The position numbers and the translations under genes were made by a program. From the IMG/VR virus record IMGVR_UViG_3300035661_000047: 64,000 nt of DNA. The stretch is one strand, 5' to 3'. This document shows, piece after piece, positions 1 to 62,114 of the stretch. Below the pieces are notes generated by a model, which saw nothing but the letters and a program-made list of their open reading frames with translations, ran no database searches and had not been told where the DNA came from. Within the stretch, counting starts at the first letter, position 1. The number at the start of each line of letters is the position of its first letter. The stretch comes from a virus (taxonomy: Duplodnaviria > Heunggongvirae > Uroviricota > Caudoviricetes).

Positions 1-268
1 GCTGATTTGCTTTCGCAGCTTGATAGTCTTCAGACGCATGCCGCGTTTCGTGCCCCAATTAGTGAAGCGGTCTTCAAACGAGGCGTAACGCTCATCGTCT
101 GCGTTAAGGAACGAGTCAATCTCGAAGTACACGCACAGGTCGCCGACAGCGAACTGTCCCTTCTTACAGACGACAGTCCAGCCAAGGACATCGACTGCTT
201 CGATTAGGTCTGCACCAGGGATTGGGCGAACGTTGATGACACGTTGAATAGAAGCAAGCTTCCGCATA
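1..268 (-). CDS. OB-fold tRNA-binding / RNA-ligase-N-terminal-like protein, N-terminal part (gene runs off window start)
   Basis: Minus-strand ATG at 268 preceded by GGAGAA RBS; frame open to coordinate 1. N-terminus MRKLASIQRVINVRPIPGADLIEAVDVLGWTVVCKKGQFAVGDLCVYFEIDSFL resembles the Myf/Trbp111-type tRNA-binding OB domain. I recall similar N-terminal domains on phage RNA ligases, but that is from memory. Confidence 0.4.
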
Positions 269-1556: not shown

Positions 1557-2018
1557 TTAATTATAGCGCATCTTCAACTGAAGCGCAACTACTGCTGTAG
1601 GCTTGTCCCCGCTTGGATCAGGGACAGGAGGTACAACAAGAATGTTGGCTCCGTACTTGCCATTCTCGTACTGTAGCACACCAAGGCCGAGAAGTCCAAG
1701 GTTATATTTGTAACGAGGATAGCCGCTTACGAGGCCGTAGATCGCACCGGCAGACCAGTTCCCTTGTGACCACGGAAGCCAAGCCTTTCCTGCGTAGATC
1801 GAGAGTCGATTGTAACTGTTGTTGTAGGCTCCTGCAACAACTTTTTGATCCTCGTCTTTGGCCCTATACTCGAAACCTAACCCAGTGTTCTGCTCGTTGA
1901 AGTGTGCAGAACGGTCTGAGTGGTAAGACCGGATCATGGCAGTCGTCCAGATTTCTTGCGCGCTGACAGGCAGCGCCAAGGTCGAAAGCAGCGCCAGGGC
2001 CGCTAGTACCTTCTTCAT
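1557..2018 (-). CDS. secreted / outer-membrane beta-barrel-like protein with signal peptide
   Basis: RBS AAGGA before ATG at 2018; N-terminal MKKVLAALALLSTLALPVSAQE signal peptide; Tyr/Gly/Asn-rich mature part typical of small OM beta-barrels. Confidence 0.55.
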   Translation of the reverse strand: MKKVLAALALLSTLALPVSAQEIWTTAMIRSYHSDRSAHFNEQNTGLGFEYRAKDEDQKVVAGAYNNSYNRLSIYAGKAWLPWSQGNWSAGAIYGLVSGYPRYKYNLGLLGLGVLQYENGKYGANILVVPPVPDPSGDKPTAVVALQLKMRYN

Positions 2019-2105
2019 TGTAGTCCTTTCAAGGTGTGAAGGCAATAAAAAGCCCGCCACGCGGAATGCGCAGCGGGCCGCTGTAGAGAGGCTTCCGCCA
2101 GCTCG

Positions 2106-4353: not shown

Positions 4354-4382
4354 AGTGTACAGCACGAAGTCAGTCTTGTCAA
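4354..4382 (-). promoter_or_regulatory. leftward sigma70-like promoter (TTGACA-17-TACACT)
   Basis: Minus-strand TTGACA at 4377-4382, TACACT at 4354-4359, 17-nt spacer containing CGTGCTG like the other promoters in this genome; transcription would run through the repeat array into the early leftward operon. Confidence 0.55.
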
Positions 4383-4466
4383 GCCCTGGAGAGGGCCAGT
4401 TCTCATTGTTGAGAATTCCTGCCCGGCAGGGTCCGTCTTCCTGTGCAGGACTGGCCCCGTAGGGGC

Positions 4467-4494
4467 TTGACAATAAATTTTTTCGTGCTACAAT
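4467..4494 (+). promoter_or_regulatory. rightward sigma70-like promoter (TTGACA-16-TACAAT, TGn-extended)
   Basis: TTGACA 4467-4472, CGTGCTACAAT 4484-4494; followed by GGAGGT RBS and ATG at 4523. Confidence 0.6.
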
Positions 4495-4522
4495 TACGGC
4501 TTCTGACACGATGGAGGTAGCA

Positions 4523-4885
4523 ATGAGCAATCATGACAGCTCCACTGCCTCTGTTGTAGTGGTGATGCAAGAGGAAGCCCCAAGCTTCCTGACGAACAGT
4601 GTAGACCTGAAGAAGCTGCACACGGACATCAAACGACACTCCAAAGCCGCCATAGATGCTTTGGTGTCGATGCTAGAGAGTCCTGACCCAAAGATCAAGT
4701 TGACAGCGGCAACGAAGCTGCTAGAATTCCAGGTGTCGGTGGCAAAGGAACTTAGCTCTGACCAGATACAACGCCTCATTGCAGAGGTAAAGCTGGTTAA
4801 GAACCCTAAGAGCAACCTTGTCCCAGTCGAAGAACAGAAGTCTCGGCCTCTCGTGGACTTCACAACAATTCGCTCTGTCGAATAA
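4523..4885 (+). CDS. hypothetical protein (120 aa); terminase small-subunit role not excluded
   Basis: GGAGGT 5 nt before ATG at 4523 (the track start at 4511 lacks an RBS); first rightward gene. Confidence 0.55.
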   Translation: MSNHDSSTASVVVVMQEEAPSFLTNSVDLKKLHTDIKRHSKAAIDALVSMLESPDPKIKLTAATKLLEFQVSVAKELSSDQIQRLIAEVKLVKNPKSNLVPVEEQKSRPLVDFTTIRSVE

Positions 4886-4900
4886 ATTTCTCCATGGCTA

Positions 4901-4928
4901 TTGACATACGGCGGTTCTCGTGTAGAAT
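4901..4928 (+). promoter_or_regulatory. sigma70-like promoter for tRNA array (TTGACA-16-TAGAAT)
   Basis: TTGACA 4901-4906, CGTGTAGAAT 4919-4928, immediately upstream of structured RNA and tRNA genes. Confidence 0.6.
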
Positions 4929-4937
4929 AGCTGCAAG

Positions 4938-5031
4938 TAGAGGAGGGCGTCTCCCCGCAATGGTGCGGGAGCGGGCTGTAACACCGCCGCCCTACGGGCC
5001 ATGATAGGTTCGATACCTATGGCGCCAACCA
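4938..5031 (+). ncRNA. structured tRNA-like RNA (canonical T-arm + CCA 3' end, no canonical acceptor/anticodon fold)
   Basis: ATAGG-TTCGATA-CCTAT T-arm at 5004-5020 followed by GGCGCCA-A-CCA; upstream GC-rich hairpins (CTCCCCGC..GCGGGAG; GCCC-TAC-GGGC); I could not fold a complete cloverleaf by eye. Confidence 0.35.
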
Positions 5032-5080
5032 AACAATGACGTGCTTGACAAATTTTGATTGTCGAGTACAATGACGAAAT

Positions 5081-5156
5081 GGGCTGTGATTGAGCTGGGG
5101 TTCTTGGCTGCTTTGCAAGCAGTTATCGGTGGGTTCGATTCCCACACGGTCCACCA
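5081..5156 (+). tRNA. tRNA-Ala (TGC)
   Basis: 76 nt; G3:U70 pair (Ala identity element), anticodon stem GCTGC/GCAGT, loop TTTGCAA, T-arm GTGGG-TTCGATT-CCCAC, CCA encoded; weak D stem. Confidence 0.65.
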
Positions 5157-5162
5157 TAATTT

Positions 5163-5238
5163 GCCCCATTAGCTCAGTTGGTAGAGCAACTGCATTGTAA
5201 GCAGTAGGTCGTCCGTTCGAGTCGGACAGAGGGCACCA
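5163..5238 (+). tRNA. tRNA-Thr (TGT)
   Basis: 76 nt; D arm GCTC-AGTTGGTA-GAGC, anticodon stem ACTGC/GCAGT with loop ATTGTAA, T-arm GTCCG-TTCGAGT-CGGAC, CCA encoded; two acceptor mismatches. Confidence 0.8.
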
Positions 5239-5245
5239 AGTCTAT

Positions 5246-5330
5246 GCGGTTGTGGCGGAATTGGTAGACGCGCAGCGTTGAGGTCGCTGTGGAGAAATCC
5301 GTGGAGGTTCGAGTCCTCTCAACCGCACCA
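5246..5330 (+). tRNA. tRNA-Leu (GAG), type II with long variable arm
   Basis: 85 nt; perfect acceptor GCGGTTG/CAACCGC, anticodon stem CAGCG/CGCTG with loop TTGAGGT, variable arm GGAGAAATCC, T-arm GGAGG-TTCGAGT-CCTCT, CCA. Confidence 0.85.
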
Positions 5331-5589
5331 TAACGTGCTTGATAGCTCCAGCTAGTGCAGTAACAGCTAGAGACTGCATGATGAGAATCCATCGGTCGCC
5401 CGTTGGAAACAAAAATCTAGATAAACTCTCAGGTATGCGAGTTAAATAGTTGAGTTGCTGGAGGCTACGGCCAATGAAGGTGACGGAGAGAATACCACAT
5501 GCGGGTAAGGTGTTTATGGATACATGCTAGCCTTCCAAGCTTGAGTAGACCAGATCGTTACTGGCTACCCGCTCCACGAATTCTTTGGC

Positions 5590-5666
5590 GTGACGTTATC
5601 TTAATATGGTAAAGAACTAGACTGTGAATCTGGTAAATATGGGTTCGAGTCAAGCGGTGGGCACCA
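5590..5666 (+). pseudogene. degenerate tRNA-like element (5' two-thirds folds as tRNA-His GTG; T-arm/acceptor disrupted)
   Basis: D arm TCTT-AATATGGTA-AAGA and anticodon arm CTAGA-CTGTGAA-TCTGG fold well; GGGTTCGAGTC T-loop present but its 3' half and the acceptor 3' strand do not pair; ends GGGCACCA. Confidence 0.3.
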
Positions 5667-5673
5667 GAATTGA

Positions 5674-5748
5674 TGCGGAGTAGTTCAGTTCGGTAGAACA
5701 GCAGCCTCATAAGCTGACGGTCGTGGGTTCAAAGCCAACCTCACGCAA
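5674..5748 (+). tRNA. tRNA-Met (CAT), imperfect
   Basis: D arm GTTC-AGTTCGGTA-GAAC, anticodon arm GCAGC-CTCATAA-GCTGA, T-arm GTGGG-TTCAAAG-CCAAC; acceptor has 2 mismatches and no encoded CCA. Confidence 0.5.
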
Positions 5749-5755
5749 CAAGATA

Positions 5756-5830
5756 GGATTCTTAGCACAGCGGTAGTGCGGCGCCCTTACAAGGCGTAGG
5801 TCGTAGGTTCGATCCCTACAGAATCCACCA
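5756..5830 (+). tRNA. tRNA-Val (TAC)
   Basis: 75 nt; acceptor GGATTCT/AGAATCC, D arm GCAC-AGCGGTA-GTGC, anticodon stem GCGCC/GGCGT loop CTTACAA, T-arm GTAGG-TTCGATC-CCTAC, CCA. Confidence 0.85.
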
Positions 5831-5919
5831 GTATTGGCAAAAACACGCAAGTGTTGCTGGTTCGAGTCCAGCCCTGTCCATTCCGGGCGGGTAGACAAAT
5901 CGGTAAAGTCGCCAAGTAT

Positions 5920-5992
5920 GCACCTATCGTCTAAAGGTTAGGACAACTGACTTTCTATCAGTGAATGTAGGGTTCAAGTCCCTCTAGGTGCT
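5920..5992 (+). tRNA. tRNA-Glu (TTC)
   Basis: Acceptor GCACCTA/TAGGTGC, D arm GTCT-AAAGGTTA-GGAC, anticodon stem ACTGA/TCAGT loop CTTTCTA, T-loop TTCAAGT; U at position 37 is atypical; no CCA. Confidence 0.6.
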
Positions 5993-6002
5993 ACAGACAT
6001 AT

Positions 6003-6077
6003 TGGCATATAGCTCAGCGGTAGAGCATCCGGCTGTTAACCGGACGGTCAGTGGTTCGATCCCACTTTTGCCAGCCA
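6003..6077 (+). tRNA. tRNA-Asn (GTT)
   Basis: Acceptor TGGCATA/TTTGCCA (U1-A72), D arm GCTC-AGCGGTA-GAGC, anticodon stem TCCGG/CCGGA loop CTGTTAA, T-arm AGTGG-TTCGATC-CCACT, G73 + CCA. Confidence 0.8.
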
Positions 6078-6083
6078 AAATAT

Positions 6084-6159
6084 GGACAGGTAGCTCAGAT
6101 GGTAGAGCGCCGGCCTGAAGAGCCGGGCGTCGTAGGTTCGATCCCTACCCTGTCTACCA
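6084..6159 (+). tRNA. tRNA-Phe (GAA)
   Basis: 76 nt; acceptor GGACAGG/CCTGTCT, D arm GCTC-AGATGGTA-GAGC, anticodon stem CCGGC/GCCGG loop CTGAAGA, T-arm GTAGG-TTCGATC-CCTAC, CCA. Confidence 0.85.
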
Positions 6160-6160
6160 T

Positions 6161-6236
6161 ATATCTATAAGACAATCGGAAGTCGGCAGGACTCCAAATC
6201 CTTGCAGTTGTGGTTCGAGTCCACAGGGATATGCCA
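6161..6236 (+). tRNA. tRNA-Trp (CCA)
   Basis: 76 nt; acceptor ATATCTA/GGGATAT, D loop AATCGGAA, anticodon loop CTCCAAA (CCA), T-arm TGTGG-TTCGAGT-CCACA, G73 + CCA. Confidence 0.75.
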
Positions 6237-6242
6237 AACAAT

Positions 6243-6319
6243 CTGGGTGTATTGTCAGTTGGTAGACGGCGAGCTTTGGAAGCTTGAGGCCGGTGGTTCG
6301 AGTCCACCCATCCAGACCA
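6243..6319 (+). tRNA. tRNA-Pro (TGG)
   Basis: 77 nt; acceptor CTGGGTG/CATCCAG, D arm TGTC-AGTTGGTA-GACG, anticodon stem CGAGC/GCTTG loop TTTGGAA, T-arm GGTGG-TTCGAGT-CCACC, A73 + CCA. Confidence 0.8.
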
Positions 6320-6442
6320 CAATCATTTAGCTCTGCCTCTAGGCTGTTTCTCCTTCTCCTTGGGCTTAGAGGTAGAGCTAAATGATAACACGGCCCCGCT
6401 CAGAGGAAACTCTGCTGCGGGGTTTTCCACATTGGAGGTCGA

Positions 6443-7942
6443 ATGAAAAATACGGAATTCGCGGATGCTGTTGACCGGCTAATCTTCGCACCATGCAGTC
6501 TAAAGCAGCAGCAGATTCTTCTCGATGACGAAACAGATTTGCTGCTTTGCGGTGGTGGTGCTGGAGGTGGGAAGTCCCACACCTGTCTGACAAAGGCGTT
6601 GAAGTACATCAATGACCCCGCAGCGCGTGTAATGATCGTCCGGCGCAGCTACCCTATGCTGAAGCTGTCTGGCGGCCTTGTAGACGAATCTAAGGGCATC
6701 TACACGCACTTTGGCGGGGTGCTGAAGATTCAAGCACTGACCTGGGTATTCCCTAACGGTGCGACGATCCAGTTCGCAGCCATCCCGGATAACCTCGGGG
6801 AGTGGCAGGGCCTGCAAGCGACAAACATTCTTGTTGACGAAGCAGCAGAATTCACCCAAGAAGAAATCTTGTTCTTGCTGTCGCGTCTTCGTGGTGCAAA
6901 GTACAAGGGACACATGAATATCACGATGACGTGCAATCCGTCTCGTGACTCGTTCTTGTATGAGTGGGTTAAGTATTCACTCAATGAAGCTGACGGAATC
7001 CCGCGCAACGGAACAGAAGACATTCGTCGGTATTTCTTCAACGAATCCGGCAAGATGTACTGGGCTGACAGCATTGAAGAGCTTTGGGAAAAGCACGGAG
7101 AGCCGCTTGGCAAGAACCGCGACCCATCAAATGGAAAGATCACATTCCTTCCTAAGAGCTTCAGATTCATCCCTCTCACTGTTTATGACAACCCTATTCT
7201 GCTCAAGAATAACTCTGGGTATCTTGCAAACCTGCTGTCGCAGCCGCGTGTAAATCAACTTCGATACCTTCATGGGTCTTGGACTGCTCGTGCGGAAGGT
7301 TCAGGATTCTTCCGTAGAGAGTGGGTAGAGGTTGTTGACTTTCCCCCGGTAAACCCTGTATCAAAGGTTCGCTCATGGGATTTGGCAGCATCAGTACCGT
7401 CAGAGAGTAACCCAAATCCAGACTGGACTTCCGGTGTAAGGCTGTCTCGGGATAAGTGGGGGTACTACTATATCGAGCACGTAAACCGCTTCAGAAAGCT
7501 TTCTGATGGCGTTATTCAAGAGCTTGTGGAGACTGGACACGACGACGGCCCCCCACCTGAGTGCGCAGTGACAATTCCAAAAGACCCTGGAGCTGGAGGC
7601 GCTGCCGCTAATCGTTTCTTCATGGCGCAACTAGCTGAGAACGGAATTGCTGCAAAGTCTGTACCTATCTCCGGGCACTCTGGGAAGATTGCTAGATTCC
7701 TACCGTTCTGCGCGCTGGCCGAAGCTGGGATGGTGAGGATTGTGCGTGGAGATTGGAATGAAGAATATCTCGCAGAGCTTGAGCATTTTGAAGGTTCTCG
7801 GAATCAGAAAGATGACCAAGTTGATGCCACATCAGACGCATTCAATACCCTCTCACGTCAAGTGCAGCTTCCGACGTTTGCAGTGCCTGTACTTTCACAA
7901 GCAAGTCCTGTACCAACTGTGTATGGCTTGACAAATACGTAA
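6443..7942 (+). CDS. terL: terminase large subunit
   Basis: 499 aa; Walker A LLCGGGAGGGKSH and overall TerL ATPase/nuclease-like sequence; first gene of late operon. Confidence 0.85.
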   Translation: MKNTEFADAVDRLIFAPCSLKQQQILLDDETDLLLCGGGAGGGKSHTCLTKALKYINDPAARVMIVRRSYPMLKLSGGLVDESKGIYTHFGGVLKIQALTWVFPNGATIQFAAIPDNLGEWQGLQATNILVDEAAEFTQEEILFLLSRLRGAKYKGHMNITMTCNPSRDSFLYEWVKYSLNEADGIPRNGTEDIRRYFFNESGKMYWADSIEELWEKHGEPLGKNRDPSNGKITFLPKSFRFIPLTVYDNPILLKNNSGYLANLLSQPRVNQLRYLHGSWTARAEGSGFFRREWVEVVDFPPVNPVSKVRSWDLAASVPSESNPNPDWTSGVRLSRDKWGYYYIEHVNRFRKLSDGVIQELVETGHDDGPPPECAVTIPKDPGAGGAAANRFFMAQLAENGIAAKSVPISGHSGKIARFLPFCALAEAGMVRIVRGDWNEEYLAELEHFEGSRNQKDDQVDATSDAFNTLSRQVQLPTFAVPVLSQASPVPTVYGLTNT

Positions 7943-51737: not shown

Positions 51738-51813
51738 TGGCGCGTCTGGTAGGACTCGAACCCACAACCCGTAGCCTAGAACACTCTTGCTCTATCCTTT
51801 GAGCTACAGACGC
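51738..51813 (-). tRNA. tRNA-Arg (TCT)-like, weak anticodon stem
   Basis: Reverse complement GCGTCTG-TA-GCTC-AAAGGATA-GAGC-A-AGAGT-GTTCTAG-GCTAC-GGGTT-GTGGG-TTCGAGT-CCTAC-CAGACGC-G-CCA: perfect acceptor, D and T arms, 76 nt with CCA; anticodon stem has two mismatches. Confidence 0.55.
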
Positions 51814-62042: not shown

Positions 62043-62114
62043 CTTGTAAGTTCCTTTCTGGTTGGTTCTAAGCCGAAGCCGCTATTGTATGCAGCTTCGG
62101 CGAGTTGTCAAGCT

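What the first reader, a model, noticed from the sequence alone, without database searches (positions are those of the whole stretch)
4901..6319. Promoter-driven array of at least 10 tRNAs with additional degenerate and tRNA-like elements
Canonical cloverleafs fold for Ala(TGC, with G3:U70), Thr(TGT), Leu(GAG), Val(TAC), Glu(TTC), Asn(GTT), Phe(GAA), Trp(CCA) and Pro(TGG), plus an imperfect Met(CAT). Interspersed are three odd elements. (a) A ~95-nt structured RNA at 4938-5031 with a perfect T-arm and CCA but no cloverleaf. (b) At 5590-5666, the 5' two-thirds of a tRNA-His(GTG) fused to a non-pairing 3' end. (c) At 5843-5875, a minihelix (AACAC-GCAA-GTGTT hairpin + GCTGG-TTCGAGT-CCAGC T-arm). 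(d) A ~250 nt stretch, 5331-5585, without a canonical tRNA but with a long-range GGAGGCTA/TAGCCTTCC pairing. Some may be decoys, processing signals or remnants. The neighbouring OB-fold tRNA-binding/RNA-ligase-like gene (1-268) and PhoH suggest a tRNA repair/anti-anticodon-nuclease theme.
Basis: partly seen in the sequence, partly recalled or inferred. Interest (0 to 1): 0.6.

Follow-up and report, generated by a model that had tools for sequence, protein, structure and literature searches.

The report
Phage tRNA operon with permuted tRNA mimic
This is an ordinary promoter-driven phage tRNA gene cluster (12 tRNA genes, not 10) whose "odd" pieces are a normal tyrosine tRNA, a dead recombination chimera and, most interestingly, an 89-base tRNA-shaped RNA with its halves in swapped order, like the tRNA-mimicking Y RNAs that related phages keep beside a Ro-like protein this phage lacks.

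Summary
The array is real. It has two consensus sigma-70 promoters, 12 tRNA genes (Tyr, Ala, Thr, Leu, Gly, Met, Val, Glu, Asn, Phe, Trp, Pro), a 24-bp hairpin and a terminator just upstream of the terminase gene of a ~77.5-kb Felix-O1-like phage.

- **(a)** An ordinary class II tRNA-Tyr(GTA), 95% identical to a relative's gene that ARAGORN calls, with two stem mismatches here.
- **(d)** It contains tRNA-Gly(TCC) at 5501-5576. The other 170 nt stay unexplained.
- **(b)** A dead chimera. A His-like 5' body is joined in the T loop to the 3' end of the tRNA that precedes Met in relatives. Relatives carry an analogous T-loop fusion.
- **(c)** More than a minihelix. Bases 5831-5919, exactly filling the Val-Glu gap, fold into a complete circularly permuted class II cloverleaf: closing stem, V hairpin, T arm, 7-bp closed acceptor hairpin, D arm. 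ARAGORN calls it a tRNA once it is rotated.

This is the YrlA (tRNA-mimicking Y RNA) architecture. Relatives and Citrobacter phage Moogle carry such modules inside their tRNA arrays beside a DUF2828/vWA Ro-like gene. This phage has no such gene, no Ro-binding stem and no motif. Element (c) is therefore an orphan, either retained or a relic. Interest is moderate.

The parts
1..267 (-). 5' part (OB-fold domain) of a 400-aa RNA ligase gene that runs off the window start
   Evidence: L026/L027 extend the window. Pfam gives PHA02142 OB-fold 1.7e-34 and RNA_ligase 2.5e-23.
4901..4928 (+). Promoter P1 (TTGACA-16-TAGAAT)
   Evidence: Both hexamers are conserved in L001 (441-468) with changes only in the spacer.
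The G1.A72 and G31.A39 mismatches are specific to this phage.
   Evidence: 95% identical to L001:486-572, which ARAGORN calls Tyr at default. Called in the window at -ps80. The MFE fold is a cloverleaf with a long variable arm. Rfam tRNA-Sec gives 22.5 bits.
5045..5072 (+). Promoter P2 (TTGACA-16-TACAAT)
   Evidence: Hexamers are conserved and the spacer has diverged in L001:587-614.
5081..5156 (+). tRNA-Ala(TGC), G3:U70, unusual D arm
   Evidence: ARAGORN. Rfam 31 bits. 98.7% identical to L001.
5163..5238 (+). tRNA-Thr(TGT)
   Evidence: 59.5 bits.
5246..5330 (+). tRNA-Leu(GAG), class II
   Evidence: 54.3 bits.
5331..5500 (+). It starts with a copy of the P2 -35 context (ACGTGCTTGA) but has no good -10.
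   Evidence: No Rfam hit at E<=10. No DNA or protein homologue. Fold z=-1.4.
5501..5576 (+). tRNA-Gly(TCC), non-canonical T loop (ATCGTTA), U73, CCA encoded
   Evidence: ARAGORN at default. Not hit by RF00005. Homologous to Gly-like genes at L003:3246-3322 and L004:2176-2251.
5588..5666 (+). A His(GTG)-like acceptor 5' strand, D arm, anticodon arm and T-stem 5' strand are joined in the T loop to the T-stem 3' strand, acceptor 3' strand and ACCA of another tRNA.
   Evidence: The 3' 22 nt plus spacer are 100% identical to the 3' end of L001 tRNA 1897-1973, which precedes Met. The 5' part aligns with L004 His. The T stem has 2 of 5 pairs. Rfam 20.3 bits, below 29. Fold z=-0.23.
5675..5747 (+). 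tRNA-Met(CAT), with a 6-nt 5' acceptor strand (bulged A69), one T-stem mismatch, and 3' ACA in place of CCA
   Evidence: Rfam 43.9 bits. ARAGORN calls it only at -ps80. The L001 orthologue has an intact T stem and CCA but is split by a 440-nt insertion.
5756..5830 (+). tRNA-Val(TAC), CCA encoded. Its 3' end defines the 5' end of element (c).
   Evidence: 71.6 bits.
5831..5919 (+). Parts: closing stem TTGGC 5834-5838 / GCCAA 5911-5915; V hairpin ACAC-GCAA-GTGT 5843-5854; U48 5855; T arm GCTGG-TTCGAGT-CCAGC 5856-5872; closed acceptor CCTGTCC 5873-5879, loop ATTCC, GGGCGGG 5885-5891; U8 A9 5892-5893; D arm GAC-AAATCGGTAAA-GTC 5894-5910; GTA/GTAT overhangs at both ends.
   Evidence: The MFE fold is exactly this structure: -30.5 kcal/mol, z=-3.2, 1 of 200 shuffles as stable. 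Rotated, it is called a class II tRNA by ARAGORN at default. Partial YrlA hit, 24.3 bits, model positions 27-81. The first 36 nt are 97% conserved after Val in L001/L008/L014.
5920..5992 (+). tRNA-Glu(TTC), no CCA encoded. Its 5' end (RNase P site) defines the 3' end of element (c).
   Evidence: 51.7 bits.
6003..6077 (+). tRNA-Asn(GTT)
   Evidence: 66.9 bits.
6084..6159 (+). tRNA-Phe(GAA)
   Evidence: 67.6 bits.
6161..6236 (+). tRNA-Trp(CCA), A/T-rich acceptor, G73
   Evidence: ARAGORN. Not reached by RF00005.
6243..6319 (+). tRNA-Pro(TGG)
   Evidence: 39.5 bits.
6322..6386 (+). 24-bp hairpin directly after the last tRNA; possible processing site
   Evidence: The whole 6320-6442 stretch, which also includes the terminator hairpin, folds at -65.2 kcal/mol, z=-8.8. 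94% conserved in L001.
6392..6426 (+). Terminator-like hairpin (CCCCGC...GCGGGG) followed by TTTT, 17 nt before the terminase start codon
   Evidence: Fold. Conserved in L001 with 5 T.

Best explanation
The locus is the tRNA operon of a ~77.5-kb Felix-O1-like phage.

Transcription and processing: host sigma-70 RNA polymerase starts at P1 (4901) and P2 (5045) and stops at the hairpin-T4 terminator (about 6392-6426). RNase P and 3' processing enzymes cut the transcript into 12 tRNAs (inferred from general tRNA biology).

How the array evolves: by gain, loss and unequal recombination in the conserved T loop. That process made element (b), a dead His/other-tRNA chimera. In the sister lineage it fused the first 36 nt of (c) to the 3' end of tRNA-Pro.

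Elements (a) and (d): (a) is the array's tRNA-Tyr, and (d) contains tRNA-Gly.

Element (c), 5831-5919: a structurally complete, circularly permuted class II tRNA shape with the YrlA architecture of stem, V hairpin, T arm, closed acceptor hairpin, D arm, stem. It exactly fills the gap between the CCA end of tRNA-Val and G1 of tRNA-Glu, so processing of its neighbours would release it as an 89-nt tRNA-shaped RNA (inferred). Its 7-bp acceptor stem also makes it a plausible RNase P substrate at 5884|5885, as shown for M. smegmatis YrlA.

Most likely origin of (c): the tRNA-like module of a Y-type RNA. Relatives at 70% TerL identity and cultured phage Moogle keep such RNAs inside their tRNA arrays next to a DUF2828/vWA Ro-like protein. 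This lineage has lost that protein, the outer stem and its motif. The module survives intact as an orphan tRNA mimic. Whether it is still used or is a recent relic is open; I put it at about even odds.
For: Array and signals.

Tyr.

Gly.

Chimera (b).

Element (c):
- The MFE fold is the permuted cloverleaf, z=-3.2.
- All 25 base pairs of the five helices are standard pairs.
- U8, A14, G18-G19, A21, A15:U48, G53:C61 and T54-T55-C56...A58 can all be read directly from the sequence.
- ARAGORN at default calls the rotated sequence. Five of six rotated neighbour junctions give nothing.
- A 7/7 closed acceptor was found at only 4 of 135 T arms. Two of these are (c) itself and one is a Ro-adjacent module.
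- The Rfam YrlA model aligns T arm, acceptor hairpin, UA and D arm in register.

Context:
- YrlA-type modules lie directly upstream of a DUF2828+DUF7788 gene inside the arrays of L003 and L004, and also in L093 and Moogle.
- A CM built from (c) alone hits L093:2316-2409 at 29.7 bits, above every tRNA-junction hit, which reach at most 20.8 bits.
- In L004 the cassette lies between Val/Ala and Met/.../Glu. (c) lies between Val and Glu.
- The closed 77.5-kb genome has no DUF2828 homologue and no TROVE domain among 30 ORFs scanned.

Literature: YrlA architecture, and RNase P cleavage with CCA addition for a 7-bp acceptor (PMC4201824). A Ro60-like gp130 lies upstream of the tRNA array in Felix-O1-like phage Bas63 (PMC11482910).
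Against: - Only one sequence of the full (c) exists, plus an identical metagenome copy, so there is no covariation.
- Its 3' half has no homologue anywhere searched.
- A CM built from six Ro-adjacent modules scores (c) at 39.2 bits, within the range of ordinary tRNA-tRNA junctions, which reach 41.8 bits. Sequence homology to those modules is therefore not shown.
- The T arm and acceptor sequence shared with L093 also occurs in an ordinary tRNA-Phe.
- (c) is far below the YrlA gathering score (24.3 against 69). It lacks the GNCGAA and UUACAGCAA motifs, the long stem and a Ro partner.
- It was destroyed without replacement in the sister lineage.
- No expression data.
Confidence: 0.6

Rival explanations
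1. Element (c) is non-functional debris. A class II tRNA gene was tandemly duplicated. The 5' half of the first copy and the 3' half of the second were then deleted, leaving 3'-half, TTCC spacer, 5'-half. It only looks designed because both halves come from one tRNA.
For: These arrays demonstrably undergo deletions that leave tRNA fragments: element (b), and the c-Pro fusion in L001. The 4-5 nt acceptor 'loop' equals a typical inter-tRNA spacer in this array. There is no Ro partner, motif or long stem. The sister lineage lost it.
Against: It needs two deletions that both end in the anticodon loop and exactly at the mature ends of intact neighbours. The documented deletions here have T-loop junctions instead. 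All helices and tertiary positions are intact, while genuine tRNAs in the same array (Tyr, Met) carry stem mismatches. The Val|GTATTGGC junction predates the split from the 85%-TerL lineage. Permuted modules are a regular, Ro-adjacent feature of related phages.
Confidence: 0.25
2. Element (c) is a true permuted tRNA gene. After the neighbours are processed, its 5'-P and 3'-OH ends meet where an anticodon loop would be and are sealed by the phage's OB-fold RNA ligase. RNase P opens the acceptor hairpin, and trimming plus CCA addition give a class II tRNA with loop GUAUGUA.
For: Joining 5919 to 5831 gives a 7-nt loop with U33 and a sequence that ARAGORN accepts at default. The acceptor is 7 bp with A73. 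The phage encodes an RNA ligase 4.6 kb away and an RtcB fragment.
Against: The joined loop has U37 and anticodon AUG with an unmodified-type A34, which is atypical. CCA is not encoded, whereas 10 of the 12 array tRNAs encode it (all but Met and Glu). No permuted tRNA is known in bacteria or phages (one search found none). The related modules sit inside longer Y-like RNAs rather than between tRNAs. There is no evidence for ligation.
Confidence: 0.05
3. One reading: the odd elements are decoys or processing signals that, together with the RNA ligase and PhoH, protect the phage from host tRNA-cleaving defences.
For: An RNA ligase, an RtcB fragment and PhoH lie just upstream. A Ro60-like protein next to the tRNA array of Bas63 counters a defence system (PMC11482910). 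(c) is a well-formed tRNA mimic.
Against: (a) and part of (d) are plain tRNAs. (b) does not fold (z=-0.23, T stem 2 of 5 pairs) and is explained by recombination. (c) has no anticodon loop to serve as bait for anticodon nucleases. Nothing here tests defence.
Confidence: 0.12

Closest known systems
YrlA (Y RNA-like A, Rfam RF02553), especially M. smegmatis YrlA
   Same: Same module order: V stem-loop, T arm, closed 'acceptor' stem-loop, UA, D arm, all enclosed by a stem formed from the 5' and 3' sides. Canonical T-loop and D-loop nucleotides are present. [quoted passage not shown] The Rfam model aligns positions 27-81 in register.
   Different: Score is 24.3 bits against a gathering score of 69. 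There is no long Ro-binding stem, no GNCGAAN0-1G motif, and no Ro60/TROVE or DUF2828 gene in the whole 77.5-kb genome. It is bounded by tRNAs rather than by its own stem. The D arm is class II-like (3 bp, 11-nt loop).
Y-like RNAs next to DUF2828/vWA 'Ro-like RNA-binding protein' in Felix-O1-like and other phages (L003, L004, L093, Citrobacter phage Moogle; hypothesised for Bas63 in PMC11482910)
   Same: They lie inside phage tRNA arrays of related myophages. One paralogue per cluster carries the same T arm, closed 7-bp acceptor, UA, D arm module. The position in the array corresponds (after Val/Ala, before Glu).
   Different: Those RNAs have a 6-8 bp outer stem, a 5' (U)UACAGCAA motif, a 3' CUG, often NCCA inside the acceptor loop, and an adjacent protein gene. 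Element (c) has none of these. A CM built from them does not separate (c) from tRNA-tRNA junctions.
Circularly permuted tRNA genes of Cyanidioschyzon merolae and Thermofilum pendens (own knowledge: Soma et al. 2007; Chan et al. 2011)
   Same: The 3' half lies upstream of the 5' half. The acceptor ends are linked by a short intervening sequence. The breakpoint is in the anticodon loop. Rotation restores a canonical cloverleaf.
   Different: Those genes rely on a bulge-helix-bulge motif and the archaeal/eukaryotic splicing endonuclease and ligase. Here the flanks are mature tRNA ends in a bacterial virus. No mature contiguous product is known.
Ordinary phage tRNA arrays (T4, T5, Felix O1, Moogle)
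   Same: Tightly spaced tRNAs with 1-10 nt spacers, own promoters, CCA mostly encoded, non-canonical members, homing endonucleases in relatives.
   Different: Nothing in principle. This describes the locus as a whole.
Two-piece (permuted) tmRNA
   Same: T arm, then acceptor 3' strand, then linker, then acceptor 5' strand, in that order. Permuted tmRNAs occur next to DUF2828 genes in L070 and L087.
   Different: There is no tag reading frame, no pseudoknots and no CCA. Neither ARAGORN nor Rfam calls a tmRNA in the window.

Membership tests
tRNA (cloverleaf; RF00005 / ARAGORN) | Element (a): contiguous acceptor, D, anticodon (7-nt loop, U33), variable and T arms, discriminator, and orthology to called tRNAs | tested here: met
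   Class II Tyr(GTA). Two stem mismatches keep it below ARAGORN's default threshold.
tRNA (cloverleaf; RF00005 / ARAGORN) | Element (b): paired T stem and acceptor stem, and a score at or above the family threshold | tested here: not met
   T stem 2 of 5 pairs. Acceptor 5 of 7 pairs, including 2 G.U. RF00005 20.3 bits, below 29. No sensible ARAGORN call even at -ps80. Fold z=-0.23.
tRNA (cloverleaf; RF00005 / ARAGORN) | Element (c): 5'-to-3' order acceptor, D, anticodon, V, T, acceptor with free ends at the acceptor | tested here: not met
   The order is permuted and the acceptor is closed by ATTCC. Only the rotated sequence is called.
YrlA (RF02553) | tRNA-like domain in the order V, T, acceptor stem-loop, D | tested here: met
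   Architecture as described in PMC4201824.
YrlA (RF02553) | Covariance-model score at or above gathering (69 bits) over the full model | tested here: not met
   24.3 bits, model positions 27-81 only. The same model gives 21-26 bits on tRNA-tRNA junctions.
YrlA (RF02553) | Long 5'/3' stem with the GNCGAAN0-1G motif (Ro60 binding site) | tested here: not met
   Only a 5-bp closing stem, perhaps 8 bp with a bulge. The motif is absent from 5831-5919.
YrlA (RF02553) | Encoded within about 4 kb of a Ro60 orthologue on the same strand | tested here: not met
   No TROVE domain in 30 ORFs. tblastn with the relatives' DUF2828 protein finds nothing (E>6) in the closed 77.5-kb genome.
YrlA (RF02553) | Bound by Ro60; carries tRNA-type modifications | not testable with these tools
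   Needs immunoprecipitation and modification mapping.
Phage DUF2828-associated Y-like RNAs | Outer stem plus 5' (U)UACAGCAA motif plus 3' CUG, adjacent to a DUF2828 gene | tested here: not met
   Seen in L003, L004, L093 and Moogle. Absent around (c).
Phage DUF2828-associated Y-like RNAs | Sequence and structure homology of the tRNA-like module | tested here: inconclusive
   A CM from (c) hits L093 at 29.7 bits, above junction hits. The reverse CM scores (c) at 39.2 bits, inside the junction range.
Permuted tRNA genes (algal/archaeal) | 3' half upstream of 5' half; rotation restores a canonical cloverleaf | tested here: met
Permuted tRNA genes (algal/archaeal) | Leader/trailer bulge-helix-bulge motif for the splicing endonuclease | tested here: not met
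   The flanks are the CCA end of tRNA-Val and G1 of tRNA-Glu. No leader/trailer helix is available.
Permuted tRNA genes (algal/archaeal) | Circular intermediate and a mature contiguous tRNA | not testable with these tools
   Needs cRT-PCR or RNA-seq.
Two-piece tmRNA | Tag reading frame, pseudoknots, and CCA after the acceptor 3' strand | tested here: not met
   No tmRNA found by ARAGORN or Rfam in the window. The loop is ATTCC.

The most novel reading that the evidence does not exclude
Element (c) is a working permuted tRNA gene of a bacterial virus. Processing of tRNA-Val and tRNA-Glu creates 5'-P and 3'-OH ends that face each other at the anticodon-loop position. The phage's OB-fold RNA ligase seals them. 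RNase P then opens the 7-bp acceptor hairpin and CCA is added. The product is either a circular tRNA-shaped RNA or a class II tRNA with a new anticodon loop (GUAUGUA).
Probability: 0.05. Interest if true: 0.9.

Novelty: new variant of a known kind. Interest (0 to 1): 0.42.

Why it matters
As a tRNA array the locus is routine.

Two things make it worth a note. First, it gives clean, dated examples of how phage tRNA arrays are remodelled by recombination inside the conserved T loop. Element (b) here and the c-Pro fusion in the sister lineage are both examples. This explains 'half tRNAs' that annotation pipelines skip or mis-call.

Second, element (c) shows a Y-RNA-type tRNA mimic stripped to its tRNA-like module, with no Ro-like partner, and placed so that tRNA processing enzymes would cut it out precisely. 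If it is expressed and stable, the tRNA-like module of Y RNAs would have a function independent of Ro. What that module does is still an open question in Y RNA biology. This small phage would then be a simple system in which to test it.

The comparison also brought up a widespread set of phage Y-like RNAs beside DUF2828 proteins inside tRNA arrays. As far as I could find, these have only been guessed at (Bas63).

Tried and rejected
- **Close relatives carrying the full (c).** TerL-based scans of viral and metagenome contigs gave only 13+4 loci, the closest at 85% identity. Exact-protein look-ups returned identical contigs that break inside the array.
- **DNA patterns for (c).** Four viral-contig patterns were tried. 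The closed-acceptor core and the exact D-arm sequence gave 0 hits. The V hairpin gave only L001/L008. A degenerate D-arm pattern gave 55 hits, all chance matches in coding DNA.
- **BLAST of the rotated (c) against 50,697 phage records.** Only generic T-arm hits. One 'unannotated' hit (BcepSauron) proved to be an ordinary tRNA-Phe.
- **Reverse covariance model from six Ro-adjacent modules.** It cannot separate (c) from tRNA-tRNA junctions. The acceptor loops were trimmed to 6 nt to obtain a clean alignment.
- **Spacer (d).** No Rfam, DNA or six-frame protein similarity, and no significant fold. A P2-like -35 context and a small TGCAGT/ACTGCA hairpin were seen by eye only.
- **Two-piece tmRNA reading of (c).** Rejected: no tag reading frame and no tmRNA call.
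- **Chance origin of (c).** Rejected. A 7/7 acceptor together with a 5/5 closing stem in register with the D and V arms is very unlikely by chance; my rough estimate is about 1e-4. Only 4 of 135 T arms reach 7/7.
- **DUF2828 protein against PDB by sequence.** No hit. Its Ro-like nature rests on annotations and on PMC11482910.
- **Two exact-protein look-ups.** They failed because of start-codon choice.

Full report
**What the window is.** ORF 6443-7942 is a terminase large subunit (Pfam Terminase_6N/6C). It is about 41% identical to the terminases of Pseudomonas phiPsa374-type myophages. It is followed by portal, protease, capsid and tail genes, with replication genes on the other strand. No cultured phage is close at the DNA level. 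The nearest relatives are uncultured contigs: L001/L008/L014 at 85% TerL identity, and L003, L004, L005 and L013 at about 70%. Exact-protein look-ups gave contigs that extend both window ends and overlap each other. The genome therefore closes at about 77.5 kb. A JGI contig (L020) is 100% identical to window 4376-6156, so the odd elements are not peculiar to this one assembled sequence.

**The array.** ARAGORN at default calls ten tRNAs between 5081 and 6319: Ala, Thr, Leu(gag), Gly(tcc), Val, Glu, Asn, Phe, Trp and Pro. Rfam adds Met at 5675-5747 with 43.9 bits. It does not reach Trp or Gly.

TTGACA-N16-TAnAAT occurs perfectly five times in 64 kb, against 1.07 expected. Four of these lie at 4467, 4700, 4901 and 5045 on the + strand. 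P1 (4901) and P2 (5045) keep both hexamers in L001, while the P2 spacer has diverged.

After tRNA-Pro comes a 24-bp hairpin at 6322-6386. A CCCCGC/GCGGGG hairpin followed by TTTT then ends at 6426, 17 nt before the terminase ATG. The 6320-6442 stretch folds at -65.2 kcal/mol with z=-8.8. Both hairpins are conserved in L001. The locus is therefore a self-contained transcription unit.

**Element (a), 4945-5031.** It reads as a class II tRNA:
- acceptor GGGCGTC/GGCGCCA, then U8
- D stem CCCGC/GCGGG
- anticodon loop CTGTAAC (GTA)
- variable arm GCCC-tac-GGGC
- T arm ATAGG-TTCGATA-CCTAT
- A73 and CCA

It is 95% identical to L001:486-572 and 85-89% identical to L003 and L008 genes. ARAGORN calls all of these tRNA-Tyr(gta) at default, and each is the first gene of its array. 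The window copy differs at four positions, producing G1.A72 and G31.A39 mismatches. This explains why it is called only at a relaxed threshold. Its MFE fold is the cloverleaf.

**Element (d), 5331-5585.** Bases 5501-5576 are tRNA-Gly(TCC): acceptor GCGGGTA/TACCCGC, U73, CCA. It is homologous to unusual Gly-like genes in L003 and L004 that share the acceptor and anticodon arm. Its T loop (ATCGTTA) is non-canonical, and RF00005 does not score it.

The remaining 170 nt (5331-5500) have no Rfam hit, no DNA or protein homologue and no significant fold. They begin with the 10-nt context of the P2 -35 box but lack a usable -10. The proposed GGAGGCTA/TAGCCTTCC pairing needs a bulge and uses the Gly anticodon arm. 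I see no support for it. This stretch remains unexplained.

**Element (b), 5588-5666.** The 5' part aligns with tRNA-His of L004 and has the loop CTGTGAA. From the T loop onward it is different. The sequence AGCGGTGGGCACCA plus the spacer to Met is 22/22 identical to the 3' end of L001 tRNA 1897-1973. That tRNA precedes Met in L001 (Rfam 55 bits; its loop CTTATAA reads as anticodon TAT by my reading).

The resulting T stem has 2 of 5 pairs. RF00005 gives 20.3 bits. The fold is no better than shuffles, z=-0.23. It is a chimera made by recombination between the T loops of neighbouring tRNA genes.

The same process is visible in the sister lineage. In L001/L008/L014 the first 36 nt of element (c) run through GGTTCGAG straight into the last 26 nt of tRNA-Pro. 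The rest of (c), Glu, Asn, Phe, Trp and most of Pro are deleted.

**Element (c), 5831-5919.** The interval between the CCA of tRNA-Val (5830) and G1 of tRNA-Glu (5920) is 89 nt. Its minimum-energy fold is -30.5 kcal/mol, z=-3.2, with 1 of 200 shuffles as stable. It consists of:
- closing stem TTGGC/GCCAA
- hairpin ACAC-GCAA-GTGT
- T arm GCTGG-TTCGAGT-CCAGC
- 7-bp hairpin CCTGTCC-ATTCC-GGGCGGG
- UA
- D arm GAC-AAATCGGTAAA-GTC

This is a tRNA cloverleaf opened in the anticodon loop and closed at the acceptor end. U8, A14, G18-G19, A21, A15:U48, G53:C61 and the T54-T55-C56...A58 set are all in place (read).

Joining 5919 to 5831 gives a sequence that ARAGORN calls at default as a class II tRNA with a 7-nt loop GTATGTA. 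Five of six neighbour junctions rotated the same way give nothing, and one gives an aberrant call. Among 135 T arms in the window and related loci, only four are followed by a 7/7 complementary pair of acceptor strands. Two are (c) itself, in the window and in L020, and one is a Ro-adjacent module. Chance is excluded. The element derives from a single tRNA-like unit.

**What (c) resembles.** The Rfam YrlA model aligns its T arm, acceptor hairpin, UA and D arm in register, over positions 27-81. The score is only 24.3 bits against a gathering score of 69. The same model gives 21-26 bits on ordinary tRNA-tRNA junctions. Chen et al. (PMC4201824) define YrlA by four features:
- this module order (V, T, acceptor stem-loop, D)
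- a long stem carrying a GNCGAAN0-1G motif
- a location within 4 kb of a Ro60 orthologue
- cleavage by RNase P and CCA addition in the M. smegmatis RNA, which has a 7-bp acceptor stem

**Context in relatives.** L003 and L004 carry, inside their tRNA arrays, three or four tandem small RNAs. Each has an outer stem, a TTYCAGCAAAC motif and a 3' AAAAAG stretch. Some contain a T arm, closed acceptor, UA, D arm module. They sit immediately upstream of a 470-aa DUF2828+DUF7788(vWA) protein. That protein belongs to phrog_850 'RNA-binding protein' and is annotated 'Ro-like RNA binding protein' in mycobacteriophages.

The same arrangement occurs in L093 and in cultured Citrobacter phage Moogle. There the acceptor loops even contain NCCA. 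A preprint on the Felix-O1-like phage Bas63 reports that gp130, directly upstream of its tRNAs, is structurally Ro60-like and counters the ppl defence. It suggests that some 'tRNAs' may be Y RNAs (PMC11482910).

In L004 the cassette lies between Val/Ala and Met/Asp/Ser/Glu. (c) lies between Val and Glu.

**Limits of the link.** The window phage has no DUF2828 or TROVE gene anywhere in its closed genome. (c) has no outer stem or motif. A model built from (c) alone finds the L093 module at 29.7 bits, above all junction hits, which reach at most 20.8 bits. The reverse model, built from six Ro-adjacent modules, scores (c) at 39.2 bits, inside the range of junctions, which reach 41.8 bits. The shared T-arm and acceptor sequence also occurs in an ordinary tRNA-Phe. 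No homologue of the 3' half of (c) was found. Membership in YrlA therefore fails. The claim is architectural and contextual.

**Mechanism.**

Shown:
- promoters, terminator and gene order
- the structures
- the chimeric junctions
- the conservation of the Val|(c) junction since the split from the 85% lineage

Inferred:
- The operon is transcribed by host polymerase and processed by RNase P and 3' nucleases.
- This releases (c) as an 89-nt tRNA-shaped RNA.
- RNase P may also cut (c) at 5884|5885.

I think (c) most likely descends from a Y-type RNA whose Ro-like partner and binding stem were lost. In favour of continued use:
- Every helix and tertiary position is intact, while Tyr and Met in the same array carry defects.
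- The boundaries are exact.

In favour of a relic:
- There is no partner.
- It was lost in the sister lineage.
- Only one sequence exists.

I put these at about even odds.

**Theme.** The gene at 1-267 (minus strand) is the OB-fold N-terminus of a 400-aa RNA ligase. A 114-aa RtcB N-terminal fragment and PhoH are nearby. An RNA-repair flavour is therefore real, but no test here links it to the array.

**Verdict.** This is an ordinary phage tRNA operon, correctly spotted but mis-parsed in half of its 'odd' parts. It contains one genuinely unusual component: an orphan, stem-less, circularly permuted tRNA mimic.

Noticed in passing
L004:2640-3050, L003:3380-3760, L093:1920-2480, L108 (Citrobacter phage Moogle NC_027293):5700-6480: Tandem families of 55-140-nt RNAs lie inside phage tRNA arrays, next to a DUF2828+vWA 'Ro-like' gene. 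Each has an outer stem, a 5' (U)UACAGCAA(AC) motif and a 3' CUG. One paralogue per cluster carries a permuted tRNA-like module. The DUF2828 protein has 710 phage records and 343 viral contigs, but few of their flanks show such modules under my strict scan.
   Followed up: partly
L004:2642-2697, L108:5875-5933 and 5713-5774: The stem-only paralogues hit Rfam Dicty_Class_I_RNA at 26.9, 24.6 and 20.5 bits (gathering score 41.5). They share the stem, the CUUACAGCAA motif, the A/U-rich interior and the 3' CUG. To my knowledge DUF2828 also occurs in eukaryotes. The resemblance may be chance or may point to a shared RNA-protein system.
   Followed up: partly
L108:6340-7088 (Moogle): ARAGORN calls a permuted tmRNA. 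It uses the Y-like tRNA module (ACCCTTC-GCCA) as acceptor piece and a tag ORF ANDNVFLAVA** about 500 nt downstream, behind its own TTGACA promoter, with three tRNAs in between. Rfam finds true permuted tmRNAs next to DUF2828 genes in L070 and L087.
   Followed up: no
L001:2010-2452 (also L008, L014): The orthologue of the window's tRNA-Met is split in the anticodon region by a ~440-nt insertion. The insertion encodes a PD-(D/E)XK endonuclease (Pfam PDDEXK_5, 4e-29). No group I intron model hits it. The window copy is uninterrupted.
   Followed up: partly
L001:3478-3693, L008:6065-6280, L009:4946-5194: Group I introns (Rfam 70-80 bits) interrupt the terminase large-subunit gene in relatives. 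The window's TerL gene (6443-7942) has none.
   Followed up: no
window 6322-6386: A 24-bp hairpin with a 17-nt loop lies directly after the last tRNA and before the terminator. It is 94% conserved in L001, where one pair becomes a mismatch. It may be an RNase III-type processing site.
   Followed up: partly
window 4467-4494, 4700-4727, 62084-62111(-): There are three more perfect TTGACA-N16-TAnAAT promoters. Two lie just upstream of and inside ORF 4511-4885, so four stacked promoters face the tRNA operon. One is at the far end on the minus strand.
   Followed up: no
window 51738-51813 (-): A solitary tRNA-Arg(TCT) sits on the minus strand just downstream of the family A DNA polymerase gene, far from the array.
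   Followed up: no
L026:5281-13175 / L023:1-7786 (genome outside the window): The 13.5 kb missing from the window closes the genome at ~77.5 kb. It encodes the rest of the RNA ligase, a 114-aa RtcB N-terminal fragment, a YAcAr protein, a serine recombinase/resolvase, a DNA ligase and an HNH/AP2 protein.
   Followed up: partly
window 5280, 6103, 6253 (ends of Logan contigs L026, L018, L019): Independent short-read assemblies of this phage break inside the tRNA array. Arrays like this one will often be missing or truncated in metagenome contigs.
   Followed up: no
window 1557-2060 (-): This 167-aa ORF matches phrog_3600, annotated as a PagP-like lipid A acylation protein (2e-18), an unexpected moron-type gene next to ClpP and PhoH.
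   Followed up: no
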